DNA of 64,000 bases from Escherichia coli (GTDB taxonomy: Bacteria > Pseudomonadota > Gammaproteobacteria > Enterobacterales > Enterobacteriaceae). The DNA lies in assembly GCF_011045215.1 (NCBI RefSeq), contig NZ_CP049201.1; one strand, given 5' to 3'. Every line of letters starts with the position of its first letter. Position 1 is the stretch's first letter. The notes under the pieces were generated by a model. It ran no database searches and was not told where the DNA came from. It saw only the letters and a list, made by a program, of their open reading frames with translations. The translations under genes were made by a program, and so were the position numbers. This document shows positions 49,782 through 54,816 of the stretch, piece by piece.

Positions 49782-50807
49782 TTAACGCACGGGCGGCGCG
49801 TACTGAATACCGCCGTTATTCCAGAGATTATTTTGCCCACGTTTAATTTTCAGCGGGCTTTCTGAACCTACGTTACGCTCAAAAATTTCCGAGTAGTTAC
49901 CCACCTGTTTGATGATGTTATAGGCCCATTTATTATCCAACTTCAGATCCTTGCCGTAATCGCCTTCTTTACCCAGCAGATGTGCCATATCAGGCGTTGC
50001 TGGATTAGCCGCTTTTTCATCGACGTTCTGGGAATTGATGCCCATCTCTTCAGCATTTAGCATGGCGAAAAGCGTCCAGCGTACAATCGAGAACCATTCA
50101 TCATCGCCACGACGAACTACCGGCCCAAGCGGTTCTTTAGAGATAACCTCCGGTAAGACAATCCATTCAGCCGGGTTGCTTAATTTGATGCGCAGGGCAT
50201 ACAGTTGGGATTGATCCGAAGCCAGCGTATCGCAGCGACCAGATTCCAGTGCCTTCGCTGATTCGTCAGAGCGATCGAAAGTCACTGGTGTGTACTTCAT
50301 ATTGTTTGCCTTGAAATAGTCGGCGACGTTGAGTTCGGTATCAGTACCCGCCTGAATACAGACGGTAGCGCCATCCAGTTCTTTCGCGCTTTTTAGCCCC
50401 GCTTTATCGTGCGTCAGGAAGCCTATGCCGTCGTAATAAGTGACGCCAGTAAATGCCATTCCCATCCCGGCATCGCGAGATGAAGTCCAGGTCGTATTAC
50501 GGGAGAGCAAATCCACCTCCCCTGACTGTAAAGCGGTGAAGCGTTCTTTTGCAGTGAGCGGGGTATATTTCACTTTCGTGTCGTCACCAAATACAGCAGC
50601 GGCAACACCACGACAAATATCAACATCAATACCTGAAAATTTACCGTCAGCATCGGCATAAGAGAACCCAGGTAATCCATCACTGATCCCGCATTGCACA
50701 AAACCTTTTTTCTGTACGGCATCAAGCGTCGCGCCAGCATGCGCCTGATTTGCAACGGCAAGCAGCACGCTGGCGGCAGCCAGTGTGGCTATCATCATCT
50801 TTTTCAT
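49782..50807 (-). CDS. yhdW: amino-acid ABC transporter periplasmic binding protein YhdW
   Basis: 341-aa ORF with signal peptide MKKMMIATLAAASVLLAVANQAHA. Confidence 0.9.
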   Translation of the reverse strand: MKKMMIATLAAASVLLAVANQAHAGATLDAVQKKGFVQCGISDGLPGFSYADADGKFSGIDVDICRGVAAAVFGDDTKVKYTPLTAKERFTALQSGEVDLLSRNTTWTSSRDAGMGMAFTGVTYYDGIGFLTHDKAGLKSAKELDGATVCIQAGTDTELNVADYFKANNMKYTPVTFDRSDESAKALESGRCDTLASDQSQLYALRIKLSNPAEWIVLPEVISKEPLGPVVRRGDDEWFSIVRWTLFAMLNAEEMGINSQNVDEKAANPATPDMAHLLGKEGDYGKDLKLDNKWAYNIIKQVGNYSEIFERNVGSESPLKIKRGQNNLWNNGGIQYAPPVR

Positions 50808-51096
50808 AATGCTTCCTGTGAGGCGAAAATTATCGTTATAGGACGTTTGGGAAACGTCTTTTACCTGTCTGTGGCCATCCTCTTATAAGCAAAAGTAGTG
50901 CCAGCTTTTGCGCACGATTTCGCGTCGCAATAAGCTGAGTGTAGACAGGAAATAATAAAAACAGCGCCCCGCAATGGTGCGAAAATGAAACATGCGCCAC
51001 ATTTTGGCGCAAAATATTTACGCGTGTTTTACTAAGCAGAATAATGATTGTTAGCGTGAGTATATTTCTGGTGGGAAGTGTGAAAATTAAATTGAT

Positions 51097-51125
51097 GCGT
51101 TATTTCGAAAGCGGCGAAATAACGC
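51097..51125. repeat. perfect 11-bp inverted repeat with 7-bp spacer in the yhdW-yhdV intergenic region
   Basis: GCGTTATTTCG-aaagcgg-CGAAATAACGC. Confidence 0.6.
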
Positions 51126-51237
51126 GATATAACATGCTAAATCAGCAGGGAATTATCCAGCAGAATATAGCAATATTTTATCTTATGGAGAGATACTGTA
51201 TCGTTAAACAGAGCGCGGAAATCCGCGCCCTGTTCAG

Positions 51238-51459
51238 TTATTTCGACAGAGCGATGATCCCCATCGTCAGGCCAGCAACAGCTGCTGCCCCGCCAGCAAT
51301 AGCCCCAGCCGTTTCCCAGTTATCCTGAGTCGTGCCTTTCATACAGGTATTGGTGTGAACCAGACGACCCTGATCGTCATAAACCGGAACGCAGGGCGAA
51401 TCATGAGCACAGCCCGCCAGCAATGCGGTGAGCAATGCCACAGGAATTAATCTTTTCAT
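51238..51459 (-). CDS. yhdV: lipoprotein YhdV
   Basis: 73-aa ORF with lipobox LLAGC and Gly/Ala-rich C-terminus. Confidence 0.85.
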   Translation of the reverse strand: MKRLIPVALLTALLAGCAHDSPCVPVYDDQGRLVHTNTCMKGTTQDNWETAGAIAGGAAAVAGLTMGIIALSK

Positions 51460-51678
51460 GGTGTTACCTCAGTAATAAACGCTAACGCTTAATAAGTTAA
51501 CTCTCTTATTAACGTGCTGAATGCCATTTTATCACCGGAGGTTATAAATCTTGCGGAATGAATAATGACAAATTATGTGAATTGTAAAAATAGTGAAGGG
51601 AGCGGGAACTATAGAAAGTTTTTAAAGAGTGAGAAGAAGAATATCTTATTAATTTTTATGGGTTTCACTGAGAATAAT

Positions 51679-51702
51679 AAAGGCGCCCGAAAGCGCCTTT
51701 AT
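51679..51702 (-). terminator. rho-independent terminator after acrF
   Basis: Minus-strand aaaggcgc-tttcgg-gcgccttt followed by attattc. Confidence 0.7.
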
Positions 51703-51711
51703 GTTTCTGAT

Positions 51712-54700
51712 TTATCCTTTAAAGCAACGGCGGATCACCACAAAGAACACCGGTACGAAGAAGATTGCCAGCAACGTTGCAGAGACCATTCCTCCCATTA
51801 CCCCGATACCCACAGCGTTCTGCGCGCCACTGCCGGCACCGTTACTGATAGCCAGCGGTAATACGCCGAGAATAAAGGCGAGAGAGGTCATCAGGATAGG
51901 ACGCAGACGCATACGTACTGCCATTAGTGTCGCTTCAACAACATCTTTACCCTCTTTCTCCATGAGATCTTTAGCGAACTCAACAATCAAAATAGCGTTT
52001 TTGGCCGACAAGCCAATTGTCGTTAGCAAGCCCACCATAAAGTAGACGTCATTTTTTTGATTAAAGAGTGTCGCCGCCAGCAGCACGCCGACAATCCCTA
52101 ACGGCACGACCAACATAACCGAGACAGGAATTGACCAGCTTTCATAGAGTGCAGCAAGGCACAGGAAAACAACCACAAAGGAAATTGCTACCAGAGCGGG
52201 AGCCTGGTTTCCCGATAAGCGTTCCTGATACGACATACCCGTCCAGTCATAACCAATGCCCGCAGGTAATTTTGACGCAAGGTTTTCCATCAACGCCATG
52301 GCATCGCCGGAACTGGTTCCTGGCGCGGCTTCCCCCTGAATCTCCATTGACGGCAGACCGTTGTAGCGTTCCAGTCGCGGAGAGCCATACACCCAATGTG
52401 AAGTGGTAAAGGCAGAGAATGGCACCATTTCGCCGTTGGCGCTGCGGACATAAAGTTTATCGACATCTTCTGGCAGCATACGGAATTTGGCATCCGCCTG
52501 AACATACACCTTTTTCACGCGACCACGGTCGATGAAGTCGTTAACGTAAGTCCCACCCAGCGCCGTTGAAATGGTCTGATTGATGTCAGAAAGTGAAACA
52601 CCTAATGCCTGCGCCTTTTCCTGGTCAACTTCCAGTTTAAACTGCGCGGTGTCTTCCAGGCCATTAGGACGCACGCTGACTAAGCTGGCAGGATGTTGCG
52701 CCGCCATACCAAGCAACTGGTTACGGGCCTGGGTTAGGGCATCGTGACCCAGCCCAGCCTGATCAATTAACTCAAAGTCGAAACCCGTTGCCGTGCCCAG
52801 TTCAACAATGGCTGGCATGTTGAATGGAATGACAAAACCGTCGCGGATCTTGCCCAATTCCATTTTGGCACGATGGATTACCGCTTCCGCACTGTTTTCG
52901 TCACCATTACGCTCTTCCCACGGTTTCAGACTGACGAAGGCCATACCGGCGTTTTGTGCCTGGCCGCTGAAGCTAAAGCCGTTAACCGTAAAGACACTTT
53001 CAACGTTCGCTTTCTCGTTCTTCAGATAGTAATCCGTCACTTGATCCAACACTTTTTGCGTCCGCTCTTGCGTCGCGCCAGCGGGTAACTGAATCATGGT
53101 CAGAAAGACACCCTGATCCTCTTCAGGTAAGAAGGAAGACGGAAGACGTAAAAACAACACCACCATTCCTGCAACAATCAGCGCATAGATCAGTAAATAT
53201 CGTCCTGTGGAACCGAGGATTTTGCCGACGCTGTTGGTGTAGTGGTTAACGCTATGATCGAAGGTGGTATTAAACCAGCCGAAGAAACCGCCCTTATTTT
53301 CGTGATGCTCAGCAGAGACGGGTTTAAGCAGCGTTGCACATAACGCAGGGGTAAGAATCAATGCCACCAGAACAGAAAGCGCCATTGCCGAAACGATGGT
53401 GATAGAGAACTGGCGATAAATTGCCCCAGTAGAACCGCCGAAGAATGCCATCGGAATAAATACCGCTGACAGCACCATCGCGATACCCACCAGTGCGCCC
53501 TGGATTTGCGACATTGATTTTTCCGTCGCTTCTTTTGGCGGGAGCTTATCCTCCATCATCACGCGCTCGACGTTCTCCACCACCACTATCGCATCATCGA
53601 CGAGCAGCCCGATGGCAAGCACCATCCCGAACATCGTTAGTGTGTTGATGGAGTAACCAAAAGCGGCGAGGATGGCAAACGTCCCTAACAACACCACGGG
53701 TACCGCAATGGTGGGGATCAGCGTTGCTCGCATATTCTGCAAGAACAGATACATCACCAGGAACACCAGCATAATAGCTTCGAACAGTGTTTTTACCACT
53801 TCGTGAATAGAAAGCTGGACGAATGGCGTGGTGTCATAAGGGTAGAGAACCTTCATTCCCTGCGGGAAGAATGGCTGTAATTCCGCCAGTTTTGCCTTAA
53901 TGGCTTTCGCGGTATCGAGAGCATTCGCGCCGGTTGCCAGCTTAATACCCAGGCCCGCCGCCGGTTTTCCGTTGATGCGAGCGATAACGTTATAGTTTTC
54001 ACCGCCAAGTTCAACCCGTGCGACATCTTTCAGGCGTACCACCGAGCCGTCACTGTTTACGCGCAGGGTCACTTTGCCGAATTCTTCCGGATTTTTTAAC
54101 CGCGTCTGAGCAATAATCGAGGCATTCAACTGTTGCCCTGGTAACGCTGGCGTTCCGCCCAACTGTCCGGCAGCGATCTGATCGTTCTGTACCTTCAACT
54201 GGTTAATCACATCAACCGGTGTCAGTTTATATTTGTTTAGCAGATCGGCGTCCAGCCAGATACGCATCGCATACTGTGCGCCGAAAAGCTGTACGTCACC
54301 GACGCCATTCAGACGGCTAAGCGTATCTTTAACGTTAGAGGCCACATAGTCCGAGATATCGTCCTGTGTGGTGTCTGGGTTATCAGAGACAAAGCCCGCC
54401 ACCATCAAATAGCTGCTACTGGACTTTTCAACACTGATCCCCTGCTGCTGAACCTCCTGCGGCAGCAACGGCGTGGCGAGCTGGAGTTTGTTCTGCACCT
54501 GCACTTGCGCGATATCAGGATCGGTCCCGGACTGGAAGGTAAGGGTAATTGTCACGCTACCGGCGGAATCGCTGGTGGAGGACATATACATCAGGTTATC
54601 GATACCGTTCATATTCTGTTCGATAACCTGCGTCACCGTATCCTGCACGGTCTGCGCATCAGCGCCCGGATAGTTTGCTGAAACAGAAACCGCTGGCGGT

Positions 54701-54816
54701 GCAATGGTTGGATACTGAGCGACGGGCAATTGTAGGATCGCCAGTGCGCCAGCCATCATCAGAATAATGGCCAGCACCCATGCAAATATCGGTCGTCGAA
54801 TAAAAAAGTTTGCCAT
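51712..54816 (-). CDS. acrF: RND multidrug efflux transporter AcrF
   Basis: 1034-aa [39 protein letters not shown]. Confidence 0.96.

What the first reader, a model, noticed from the sequence alone, without database searches (positions are those of the whole stretch)
50808..51237. 430-bp non-coding spacer between yhdV and yhdW with a perfect 11-bp inverted repeat and a second GC hairpin
GCGTTATTTCG-N7-CGAAATAACGC (51097-51125) is a perfect palindrome, a candidate dimeric regulator operator or strong hairpin. A second stem, gcgcgg-aaat-ccgcgc (51213-51228), sits just after the yhdV stop. The spacer is long for this compact region and presumably holds the yhdWXYZ promoter; no convincing protein-coding gene lies in it.
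Basis: seen in the sequence. Interest (0 to 1): 0.3.

Follow-up and report, generated by a model that had tools for sequence, protein, structure and literature searches.

The report
Escherichia-only palindrome upstream of yhdW
The 430-bp gap between yhdV and yhdW in E. coli holds a conserved transcription terminator, the already published nitrogen-regulated (sigma-54) yhdW promoter, and a real 11-bp perfect palindrome that occurs only in Escherichia and has no demonstrated function, so this is an ordinary regulatory spacer with one unexplained hairpin.

Summary
Both repeats are real and lie at the stated coordinates. The window is E. coli, and acrF, yhdV, yhdW and yhdX all read on the minus strand.

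- **GC hairpin.** It is longer than described (14 pairs, 51205-51236). It is the E. coli copy of a stem-loop found after yhdV in all 76 enterobacterial loci that carry yhdV, with compensatory changes. It is the yhdV intrinsic terminator.
- **Proximal half of the spacer (about 51015-50808).** It is strongly conserved. It holds the published sigma-54 promoter CTGGCACTACTTTTGCT, two conserved NtrC-like dyads 30 bp apart, an invariant 13-mer and a 5'UTR hairpin.
- **Perfect palindrome (51097-51125).** It is far beyond chance and present in 5355 of 5426 E. coli genomes, but absent outside Escherichia. Half of the other loci (41 of 80) carry a near-consensus CRP site about there.
  - In other Escherichia lineages the arm spacing varies.
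  - It fails the NagC/Mlc rule, has no U-tract, matches no Rfam family and is single-copy.
  - My best guess (about 0.3) is a weak secondary stem-loop acting on read-through RNA from yhdV. A neutral by-product (about 0.3) and an unknown operator or enhancer (about 0.25) remain open.

Interest is low.

The parts
51205..51236 (-). yhdV intrinsic terminator hairpin: 14 pairs, 4-nt loop, starting 2 nt after the stop codon.
   Evidence: The minus-strand fold is -24.5 kcal/mol, z -6.7. A GC-rich hairpin lies 0-40 nt after the stop in all 76 loci with full-length yhdV, usually AAAGCGCGG-loop-CCGCGCTTTTGC. RNAalifold finds 9 pairs, 7 of them with compensatory changes. In E. coli the T-tract is eroded to CTCTGTTTAACG.
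51097..51125 (.). Perfect 11-bp inverted repeat with a 7-nt spacer. It is specific to Escherichia and its function is unproven.
   Evidence: establish the repeat. It is present in 5355/5426 E. coli genomes, of which 3892 are identical to the K-12 33-mer and about 1357 have a change at the outer two positions of one arm. It is absent from the equivalent zone in all non-Escherichia loci.
51056..51086 (-). Sigma-70-like hexamer pair TTTTCA-16-TATACT (51086..51059) that includes the conserved box ATACTCAC (51063..51056; ATATTCAC in other genera). Its status as a promoter is unproven.
   Evidence: The promoter scan scores it 9/12, and the number of hits in the region is at chance level. The box is conserved with at most 1 mismatch in 54/80 loci. 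It lies 34 bp from the CRP-like site in 28 of 31 loci where both were measured.
50995..51011 (-). Distal NtrC-like dyad TGCGCCAAAATGTGGCG, part of the perfect 7-bp inverted repeat TGCGCCA-N5-TGGCGCA (50993-51011).
   Evidence: I7. It has 4 mismatches to TGCACCA-N3-TGGTGCA and lies 108 bp upstream of TGGCAC. The site is conserved across genera.
50965..50981 (-). Proximal NtrC-like dyad CGCACCATTGCGGGGCG, 30 bp from the distal one.
   Evidence: It has 4 mismatches in E. coli and 2-4 in other genera, at a conserved position. A published NtrC ChIP-seq peak is assigned to yhdWXYZ.
50937..50949 (-). Invariant 13-mer CCTGTCTACACTC between the dyads and the sigma-54 promoter. Its function is unknown.
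   Evidence: It is exact in 62/80 loci and has 1-2 mismatches in 11 more, at a fixed distance from TGGCAC. No match to the IHF consensus WATCAANNNNTTR occurs in the spacer.
50888..50904 (-). Sigma-54 promoter yhdWp, CTGGCACTACTTTTGCT (-24 GG at 50902-50901; -12 GC at 50890-50889).
   Evidence: It is the only TGGCAC-N5-TTGCW match in the 64 kb window. The identical 17-mer is a sigma-54 ChIP-seq site 70 bp upstream of yhdW in PMC4591121. It is described as a perfect consensus in PMC7045595 and gives an RpoN gSELEX peak in PMC8743547. It is conserved in all loci.
50808..50877 (-). yhdW 5'UTR of about 70 nt from the predicted start. It contains the stem-loop GACGTTT-CCC-AAACGTC (50858..50842) and the invariant ATAACGATAA...CACAGGA Shine-Dalgarno region.
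   Evidence: (I4). A local stem of at least 5 pairs is present in 73 of 77 loci, with differing stem sequences such as GGCGT/ACGCC, AGCGT/ACGCT and GGCGTG/CACGCC. RNAalifold on the MAFFT alignment did not recover it.

Best explanation
The spacer is a composite control region read on the minus strand.

(1) Terminator (shown). Directly after the yhdV stop sits the conserved yhdV intrinsic terminator hairpin.

(2) yhdWXYZ control region (shown or published). The proximal ~210 bp holds two NtrC-like enhancer dyads 30 bp apart, an invariant 13-mer, the sigma-54 -24/-12 promoter and a structured 5'UTR.

(3) The palindrome (inferred). The distal ~130 bp between these two parts evolves fast. In Escherichia it has lost the CRP-type site and the far-upstream NtrC-like site seen in other genera. 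In their place it carries the perfect 11-bp palindrome.

I think the palindrome most likely acts, if at all, as an RNA stem-loop on transcripts that read through the yhdV terminator, whose T-tract has eroded in E. coli. In that role it would be a weak back-up stop or a 3'-end-protecting hairpin. It would help insulate the nitrogen-controlled yhdW promoter from yhdV, which is strongly induced by acid. I think a fixed-geometry protein operator is less likely.

Confidence in (1) and (2) is about 0.9. Confidence in the mechanism proposed for the palindrome is about 0.3.
For: Terminator:
- Hairpin energy and z-score.
- Present in 76/76 loci, with T-tracts in most genera.
- Compensatory changes in 7 of 9 pairs.

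Promoter:
- The only consensus match in the window.
- Published sigma-54 ChIP-seq, RpoN gSELEX and NtrC ChIP-seq.
- Conservation profile.

Palindrome as a hairpin rather than an operator:
- Pairing potential is kept in other Escherichia lineages while the spacer between TTATTTCG and CGAAATAA changes: 7 nt in E. coli, 6 nt in L004, 7-bp arms with an 8-nt spacer in L003, and an imperfect 8/10 stem in L005.
- Within E. coli the two common variants both hit the outermost two stem positions and leave 9-10 inner pairs intact.
- It folds independently within the 206-nt read-through RNA.
- The minus-strand tail AUCAAUUUAAUUUUC is richer in U than the plus-strand tail GAUAUAAC.
- yhdV is among the genes most induced at pH 4.4, about 6 log2 units (PMC10746267), so read-through is a plausible problem.
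- The E. coli yhdV terminator has a weaker T-tract than its orthologues.
Against: - The palindrome's stem is AT-rich (5 G:C pairs of 11) and its loop is long (7 nt).
- The first 8 nt after the stem hold only 4 U, and the terminator scan did not call it.
- My rough d'Aubenton-Carafa-type estimate is clearly negative.
- No 3' end for yhdV or this spacer is listed in the Term-seq tables of PMC7815308, although yhdV is barely expressed in those conditions.
- The two natural arm variants give no strand information. The O157 change keeps a G-U pair on the minus strand, and the B2 change keeps one on the plus strand.
- Polymorphism in the arms is not clearly lower than in the flanks.
- The element is absent from every other genus, which manages without it. 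A neutral origin fits equally well.
Confidence: 0.4

Rival explanations
1. The palindrome is a DNA-binding site for a dimeric regulator. It could be an operator or activator site at about -45 to -73 of the sigma-70-like promoter TTTTCA-16-TATACT. Alternatively it could be a distal enhancer for a sigma-54 activator, about 208 bp upstream of the -24 element. Either way it would replace the CRP input seen in other genera.
For: - The dyad symmetry is perfect over 29 bp and far beyond chance.
- The inner 9 bp of both arms are almost invariant in 5355 E. coli genomes.
- The right arm TCGAAATAAC is the best-conserved stretch of the distal spacer among Escherichia lineages and partly in Citrobacter, which shares ATAACGCA.
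- Its centre lies 208 bp from TGGCAC, about where the CRP site centre lies in other genera (205-207 bp).
- TTATTT-N11-AAATAA resembles the 23-bp AT-armed NagC/Mlc quasi-palindrome.
- yhdW is reported as a target of Lrp and of ZraSR. This shows that other regulators act at the locus, not that they bind the palindrome.
Against: - Half-site spacing differs among Escherichia lineages.
- NagC/Mlc sites have invariant TT/AA at positions +/-5,6 (PMC4288165). Here those positions are TC/GA, so the arms sit 2 bp too far apart.
- There is no CRP match within 2 mismatches.
- The canonical NtrC consensus has no match within 3 mismatches anywhere in the spacer.
- None of the papers read places a binding peak about 215 bp upstream of the sigma-54 motif.
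- The element is single-copy in each genome at BLAST sensitivity.
Confidence: 0.25
2. The palindrome has no function. It would be a by-product of mutation (template-switch 'correction' of a quasi-palindrome) in a stretch of spacer that lost its ancestral sites and is drifting in Escherichia.
For: - The distal spacer is the least conserved part of the region.
- Escherichia has lost both the CRP-like site and the distal NtrC-like site present in other genera.
- One Escherichia lineage (L005) has only an imperfect 8/10 version, as expected for a quasi-palindrome precursor.
- About 25% of E. coli genomes carry an arm substitution without apparent consequence.
- No terminator or operator criterion that I could test is met.
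Against: - Pairing potential is retained in at least three Escherichia lineages despite indels in and next to the element.
- The inner stem is essentially fixed in E. coli.
- The chance expectation for such a repeat is about 0.05 per 64 kb.
Confidence: 0.3
3. The palindrome belongs to a small gene: an sRNA terminator, a leader peptide with attenuator, or the 94-aa plus-strand ORF.
For: - An 11-codon ORF (ATG at 51134, MLYRVISPLSK) spans the left arm and loop on the minus strand (read).
- A 94-aa ORF spans the palindrome on the plus strand.
Against: - There is no Shine-Dalgarno sequence before the mini-ORF, and its ATG is ATT in L003 and L004.
- The 94-aa ORF has in-frame stops in B2, O157 and O103 strains and in other Escherichia, and no Pfam match above cut-off.
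- No Rfam family matches at E <= 1 except two sub-threshold STnc40 hits over terminators.
- No promoter-like site lies upstream of the palindrome on the minus strand.
Confidence: 0.03

Closest known systems
NtrC/sigma-54 nitrogen-scavenging promoters of E. coli (glnAp2, glnHp2, argT, astC type)
   Same: It has a consensus -24/-12 element. Two dyad sites 30 bp apart lie about 80-110 bp upstream. NtrC and sigma-54 binding are published, and the downstream operon is an amino-acid ABC transporter.
   Different: Each dyad has 4 mismatches to TGCACCA-N3-TGGTGCA in E. coli. No IHF consensus lies between enhancer and promoter; an invariant 13-mer of unknown role sits there instead. A preprint also attributes regulation to ZraSR.
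Rho-independent (intrinsic) terminators
   Same: The yhdV hairpin has a GC-rich stem, lies right after the stop codon, has A- and T-tracts in most genera and shows covariation. The palindrome has a stable stem whose bottom three pairs are G:C.
   Different: The E. coli yhdV hairpin has an interrupted T-tract (CTCTGTTTAA). The palindrome has an AT-rich stem, a 7-nt loop and no U-tract. It was not called by the scan.
NagC/Mlc (ROK family) operators
   Same: Both are 23-bp quasi-palindromes with AT-rich arms (TTATTT...AAATAA). The palindrome has A/T at +/-11, as in Mlc sites (rule from PMC4288165).
   Different: The invariant TT/AA at +/-5,6 is TC/GA here, so the arms are displaced outward by 1 bp on each side. 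The locus has no link to amino-sugar or glucose genes.
CRP (cAMP receptor protein) sites
   Same: In 41 of 80 other loci a TGTGA-N6-TCACA site (0-2 mismatches) lies about 195-207 bp upstream of TGGCAC (mostly 205-207), about where the E. coli palindrome lies.
   Different: The E. coli sequence has no CRP match within 2 mismatches. The palindrome has odd symmetry (N7) and different half-sites.
REP/BIME and other intergenic stem-loop repeats that stabilise upstream mRNA
   Same: It is an intergenic hairpin downstream of a gene, which could protect a 3' end.
   Different: It is single-copy, with a median of one place per genome. It shows no similarity to a repeat family and no second copy in the window.

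Membership tests
Sigma-54-dependent promoter | TGGCAC-N5-TTGCW with GG at -24 and GC at -12, on the strand of the downstream gene | tested here: met
   CTGGCACTACTTTTGCT at 50904..50888 (minus strand) is the only match in the 64 kb window. It is conserved in all 80 loci with at most 1 mismatch.
Sigma-54-dependent promoter | Binding of sigma-54 holoenzyme | not testable with these tools
   Published for the identical 17-mer by ChIP-seq (PMC4591121) and by RpoN gSELEX peak (PMC8743547).
NtrC enhancer (UAS) | Tandem TGCACCA-N3-TGGTGCA dyads about 100-140 bp upstream of the start site | tested here: inconclusive
   No match within 3 mismatches in the spacer. Two conserved dyads 30 bp apart have 4 mismatches each in E. 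coli and 2-4 in other genera. A published NtrC ChIP-seq peak is assigned to yhdWXYZ at 80-bp resolution.
Intrinsic terminator (yhdV hairpin, 51205-51236) | Stable GC-rich stem-loop just downstream of the stop codon | tested here: met
   -24.5 kcal/mol, z -6.7. Present in 76/76 loci.
Intrinsic terminator (yhdV hairpin, 51205-51236) | U-tract immediately 3' of the stem | tested here: inconclusive
   Orthologues have CCGCGCTTTTGCTTT. E. coli has CCGCGC-TCTGTTTAACG, part of which pairs with AACAG. The scan did not call it.
Intrinsic terminator (yhdV hairpin, 51205-51236) | Pairing maintained by compensatory substitutions | tested here: met
   7 of 9 consensus pairs have changes on both sides.
Intrinsic terminator (palindrome, 51097-51125) | GC-rich stem followed by a U-tract | tested here: not met
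   5 of 11 pairs are G:C. The tail is AUCAAUUU on the minus strand and GAUAUAAC on the plus strand. It was not called by the scan.
NagC/Mlc operator | Invariant TT at -6,-5 and AA at +5,+6 from the centre of symmetry | tested here: not met
   The rule comes from PMC4288165. With the centre at 51111, these positions read TC and GA.
NagC/Mlc operator | C/G at +/-11 (high-affinity NagC) or A/T at +/-11 (Mlc) | tested here: inconclusive
   Positions +/-11 are T and A, which is Mlc-like. This is meaningless if the +/-5,6 rule fails.
CRP site | TGTGA-N6-TCACA with few mismatches | tested here: not met
   No match within 2 mismatches in the E. coli spacer. It is met in 41/80 other loci at a fixed position.
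Multicopy intergenic repeat (REP/BIME etc.) | Many copies per genome | tested here: not met
   Median of one place per E. coli genome for 81-nt and 33-nt queries. There is one match in the window even with 3 mismatches allowed.
Described RNA family (Rfam 15) | Covariance-model match at or above the gathering score | tested here: not met
   Only sub-threshold hits were found: STnc40 at 22-25.5 bits against a gathering score of 45, both over terminators, and one to a Brucella sRNA family. Nothing matched over the palindrome.
Protein-coding gene | ORF kept intact in relatives, or a family match | tested here: not met
   The 94-aa ORF is broken in several E. coli phylogroups and in other Escherichia. 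No Pfam hit is above cut-off for three spacer ORFs.

The most novel reading that the evidence does not exclude
The palindrome is a newly evolved, Escherichia-specific binding site for an uncharacterised dimeric regulator or sigma-54 enhancer-binding protein. It would have replaced the ancestral CRP input to the yhdWXYZ control region. That would be a datable case of regulatory rewiring of a nitrogen-scavenging and host-colonisation transporter.
Probability: 0.12. Interest if true: 0.45.

Novelty: new member of a known kind. Interest (0 to 1): 0.17.

Why it matters
It matters only modestly. The main functional content of the spacer, the sigma-54/NtrC-dependent yhdW promoter, is already in the literature, and the GC hairpin is a routine terminator.

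The comparison across 80 enterobacterial loci adds three things:
- The whole proximal half of the spacer is a tightly conserved control module with at least two unexplained parts: an invariant 13-mer and a covarying 5'UTR hairpin.
- Most genera have a well-placed CRP site that Escherichia and Citrobacter lack.
- E. coli carries a perfect palindrome about where that site lies.

A 2026 preprint links YhdWXYZ to antibiotic homeostasis and gut colonisation. Lineage differences in its control region could therefore be worth one reporter experiment. Nothing here challenges current understanding.

Tried and rejected
- **Rfam scan** of 50000-52000 at E <= 1 found nothing over the palindrome.
- **Consensus scans of the window:**
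  - Lrp (YAGHAWATTWTDCTR, up to 3 mismatches) gave 64 hits against 75 expected. Three of them cluster at 51125-51182, but this is not significant overall.
  - NtrC gave no hit in the spacer within 3 mismatches.
  - IHF gave none in the spacer.
  - Nac-type ATA-N9-TAT gave one hit at 51167-51181, with the window-wide count at chance level.
- **NagC/Mlc idea.** I raised it from memory of TTATTT...AAATAA operators and rejected it on the published +/-5,6 rule.
- **Published 3' ends.** Term-seq tables of PMC7815308 hold nothing for yhdV or the spacer, only an antisense end inside yhdW. PMC9023263 has no supplements held as text.
- **ZraR lead.** Two papers found no yhd target. The original Rome et al. 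2018 paper is not in the library.
- **Paper cap.** The limit of 15 papers was reached, so PMC3118216 (AtoC target prediction, which mentions yhdW once) could not be read.
- **5'UTR alignment.** RNAalifold on the MAFFT alignment missed the hairpin because the stems are out of register. Per-sequence folding was used instead.
- **Haplotype counts.** Searches gave identical numbers. BLAST clips two adjacent terminal mismatches, so 1357 is the sum of the B2-type and O157-type variants, not the count of each.
- **Class II CRP promoter idea for other genera.** The CRP centre lies 33.5 bp upstream of the -10-like hexamer, not 29.5 bp, so I did not adopt it.
- **Genome-wide search for the dyad.** It was not possible.

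Full report
**Identity and orientation**

The 651 bp around the finding are 100% identical to E. coli strain PapM-32-1 and 95-99% identical to 5368 of the other matching E. coli genomes. RefSeq annotation of that strain and of K-12 BW25113 shows, all on the window's minus strand:
- acrF (54816..51712);
- a 73-aa membrane/lipoprotein gene, yhdV (51459..51238);
- the spacer;
- the amino-acid ABC transporter binding-protein gene yhdW (50807..49782), intact here and frameshifted in K-12;
- yhdX.

Everything below is therefore read on the minus strand.

**The observation**

Both repeats exist at the stated coordinates.

The palindrome GCGTTATTTCG-N7-CGAAATAACGC (51097-51125) is perfect. It folds to -13.9 kcal/mol on the minus strand and -14.7 on the plus strand, with z about -3.5. 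A script counted perfect inverted repeats with arms of at least 11 bp and loops of 3-12 nt. The window has 8, whereas Markov-simulated windows average 0.05. The other seven are all A-tract/GC-stem/T-tract hairpins of the terminator type. This one is different: AT-rich, with a 7-nt loop and no flanking A- or T-tracts.

It has 13-nt arms on DNA and 14 pairs on minus-strand RNA (51236..51205), at -24.5 kcal/mol and z -6.7. On the plus strand the value is -18.6 kcal/mol.

**The GC hairpin is the yhdV terminator**

I fetched 80 loci encoding YhdW orthologues from one genome per species. The genera include Escherichia, Citrobacter, Enterobacter, Kosakonia, Lelliottia, Leclercia, Phytobacter, Atlantibacter, Cedecea and Buttiauxella.
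- yhdV lies upstream of yhdW in nearly all of them (76 loci with a tblastn hit, 75 full-length), with a spacer of 300-505 bp.
- Each of the loci examined has a GC-rich hairpin 0-40 nt after the yhdV stop. It usually has the form AAAGCGCGG-loop-CCGCGCTTTTGCTTT.
- Several lineages have different stems: GGCGTGG/CCACGCC, ACGGCGCG/CGCGCCGT and GAGTGCGG/CGCACTC.
- RNAalifold on 47 of these sequences gives 9 pairs, 7 of them with changes on both sides.
- In Escherichia the A- and T-tracts have become AACAG/CTGTT. This lengthens the stem but interrupts the U-tract, which explains why the simple scan did not call it.

**The proximal half is the known sigma-54 control region**

TGGCAC-N5-TTGCW occurs once in the 64 kb window, at 50903..50888 on the minus strand. 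Published evidence for this promoter:
- The 17-mer CTGGCACTACTTTTGCT is listed as a sigma-54 ChIP-seq site 70 bp upstream of yhdW (PMC4591121).
- yhdWp is described as a perfect consensus promoter (PMC7045595).
- An RpoN gSELEX peak lies between yhdV and yhdX (PMC8743547).
- An NtrC ChIP-seq peak is assigned to yhdWXYZ (PMC4066584).
- Lrp is reported to act directly at yhdW (bioRxiv 10.1101/276808).
- A 2026 preprint cites ZraSR control. Two other studies did not see a yhd target for ZraR.

The alignment of 80 spacers shows near-complete conservation from about 51015 to the ATG. The conserved elements are:
- two dyads 30 bp apart, TGCGCCAAAATGTGGCG (51011..50995) and CGCACCATTGCGGGGCG (50981..50965);
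- an invariant CCTGTCTACACTC (50949..50937), exact in 62 of 80 loci;
- the promoter itself;
- a 5'UTR with a stem-loop whose sequence varies while the pairing is kept.

The dyads are only NtrC-like. The canonical consensus has no match within 3 mismatches in the spacer. Each dyad has 4 mismatches in E. coli and 2-4 elsewhere. Calling them the NtrC enhancer is an inference from their position, their conservation and the published ChIP peak.

**The palindrome is lineage-specific**

In the same alignment the palindrome region scores near zero for conservation.
- No non-Escherichia locus has an inverted repeat of at least 7 bp in the equivalent zone, apart from the yhdV terminators.
- Instead, 41 of 80 loci have a CRP-type site there (TGTGA-N6-TCACA). 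Of these, 37 have at most 1 mismatch.
- The CRP-type site centres mostly 205-207 bp upstream of TGGCAC. In 28 of 31 loci where both were measured, it lies exactly 34 bp upstream of a conserved box ATATTCAC.
- Several genera have a second CRP-like site 52 bp further upstream.
- Many genera also have a better NtrC-like site about 339 bp upstream, right after the terminator.
- Escherichia and Citrobacter lack all of these. They share only ATAACGCA with each other, which forms the palindrome's right arm.

The E. coli palindrome centre lies 208 bp from TGGCAC.

**Variation inside Escherichia**
- The 33-mer around the palindrome matches 5355 of 5426 complete E. coli genomes, once per genome.
- 3892 genomes are identical to K-12, with perfect arms and the loop CTGCTTT.
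- About 1357 genomes carry a change at one of the two outermost positions of one arm: G to A in B2-type strains and C to T in O157-type strains.
- About 100 genomes differ otherwise. The window's own loop variant CCGCTTT is rare.

The two arm variants are uninformative about strand, because one keeps a G-U pair on the minus strand and the other keeps one on the plus strand.

Three other Escherichia lineages keep the core TTATTTCG/CGAAATAA but with different geometry:
- L004 has TTATTTCGAA-CC-TTCGAAATAA.
- L003 (E. whittamii) has 7-bp arms and an 8-nt spacer.
- L005 has an imperfect 8/10 stem.

Pairing kept while spacing changes is what a hairpin tolerates and what a fixed-geometry dimer operator usually does not. 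It is also what a drifting quasi-palindrome would look like.

**Tests of specific identities**
- Rfam: nothing over the palindrome.
- Terminator: not called. The tail is AUCAAUUU.
- NagC/Mlc: the arms TTATTT-N11-AAATAA recalled these operators. The published rule of invariant TT/AA at +/-5,6 is not met, since those positions read TC/GA.
- CRP, NtrC, IHF, Lrp and Nac consensus scans: nothing specific at the palindrome.
- Coding: the overlapping 94-aa ORF is broken in other strains and has no family match. An 11-codon minus-strand ORF has no Shine-Dalgarno sequence and loses its ATG in L003 and L004.
- Published 3' ends: none are listed for yhdV or the spacer, but yhdV is poorly expressed in standard media. 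It is induced about 6 log2 units at pH 4.4.

**Mechanism**

Two statements are well supported: the spacer begins with the yhdV terminator and ends with the sigma-54/NtrC-dependent yhdW control region.

For the palindrome I commit, with a probability of about 0.3, to an RNA-level role. It would be a secondary stem-loop on transcripts that escape the T-tract-eroded yhdV terminator, stopping them weakly or protecting their 3' end. This would help keep acid-induced yhdV transcription out of the nitrogen-controlled operon. It folds independently within the 206-nt read-through RNA.

A functionless by-product of quasi-palindrome correction is about equally likely (0.3). A protein site, either an operator at -45 to -73 of the sigma-70-like TTTTCA-16-TATACT or a distal enhancer, is somewhat less likely (0.25).

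**Verdict**

The spacer is an ordinary and largely already-described regulatory region. The palindrome is a real, unannotated, genus-specific hairpin of uncertain and probably minor function.

Noticed in passing
Loci L023-L082, about 195-207 bp upstream of TGGCAC (mostly 205-207). Example: L038, TGTGATTAAATTCACA.: 41 of 80 enterobacterial loci carry a near-consensus CRP site at a fixed distance from the sigma-54 promoter, 34 bp upstream of a conserved ATATTCAC box. Several also have a second CRP-like site 52 bp further upstream. Escherichia and Citrobacter lack them. The spacing (centre 33.5 bp from the -10-like hexamer) fits neither class I nor class II CRP promoters.
   Followed up: partly
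window 50937-50949 (minus strand): The 13-mer CCTGTCTACACTC between the NtrC-like dyads and the sigma-54 promoter is exact in 62 of 80 loci and nearly exact in 11 more. It is more conserved than the dyads themselves. It does not match the IHF consensus, and no function is known to me.
   Followed up: partly
window 50842-50858 (minus strand), within the yhdW 5'UTR: The stem-loop GACGTTT-CCC-AAACGTC is kept in 73 of 77 loci as a stem of at least 5 pairs with different sequences (GGCGT/ACGCC, AGCGT/ACGCT, GGCGTG/CACGCC). It is followed by an invariant ATAACGATAA...CACAGGA. This may be a conserved post-transcriptional control element.
   Followed up: partly
window 49782-50807: yhdW is intact here (341 aa), as in most E. 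coli, but is annotated as frameshifted in K-12 BW25113. A 2026 preprint builds on this difference.
   Followed up: partly
Loci L032-L082, about 339 bp upstream of TGGCAC, just after the yhdV terminator. Example: L075, TGCTACATGGTGGTGCA.: Many genera have a third NtrC-like site that is closer to consensus (2-4 mismatches), far upstream. It is absent in Escherichia and Citrobacter.
   Followed up: partly
window about 51015-51055, compared with other genera: Escherichia and Citrobacter have about 11 bp (one helical turn) less DNA between the ATATTCAC-type box and the NtrC-like dyads. The box lies 160 bp from TGGCAC in these two genera and 171-173 bp elsewhere.
   Followed up: partly
L086:1-385 (E. 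coli JE86-ST02): An IS1 element is inserted about 15-20 bp upstream of the palindrome. It replaces the yhdV side of the spacer and leaves the palindrome and the yhdW control region intact.
   Followed up: no
window 51167-51181 and 51562-51576: Two ATA-N9-TAT (Nac-type) matches flank yhdV. A paper citing RegulonDB lists yhdV under Nac and Leu-Lrp control. The count of such matches across the window is at chance level.
   Followed up: no
window 51679-51700 (minus strand) and 51206-51267: A terminator-like hairpin AAAGGCGCTTTCGGGCGCCTTT follows acrF. It and the yhdV terminator give sub-threshold Rfam STnc40 hits (25.5 and 22 bits against a gathering score of 45). This probably reflects only terminator-like shape.
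   Followed up: no
yhdW coding region (MG1655 position 3419118, minus strand, in PMC7815308): The Term-seq supplement lists a 3' end antisense to yhdW. This implies some antisense transcription across the operon.
   Followed up: no
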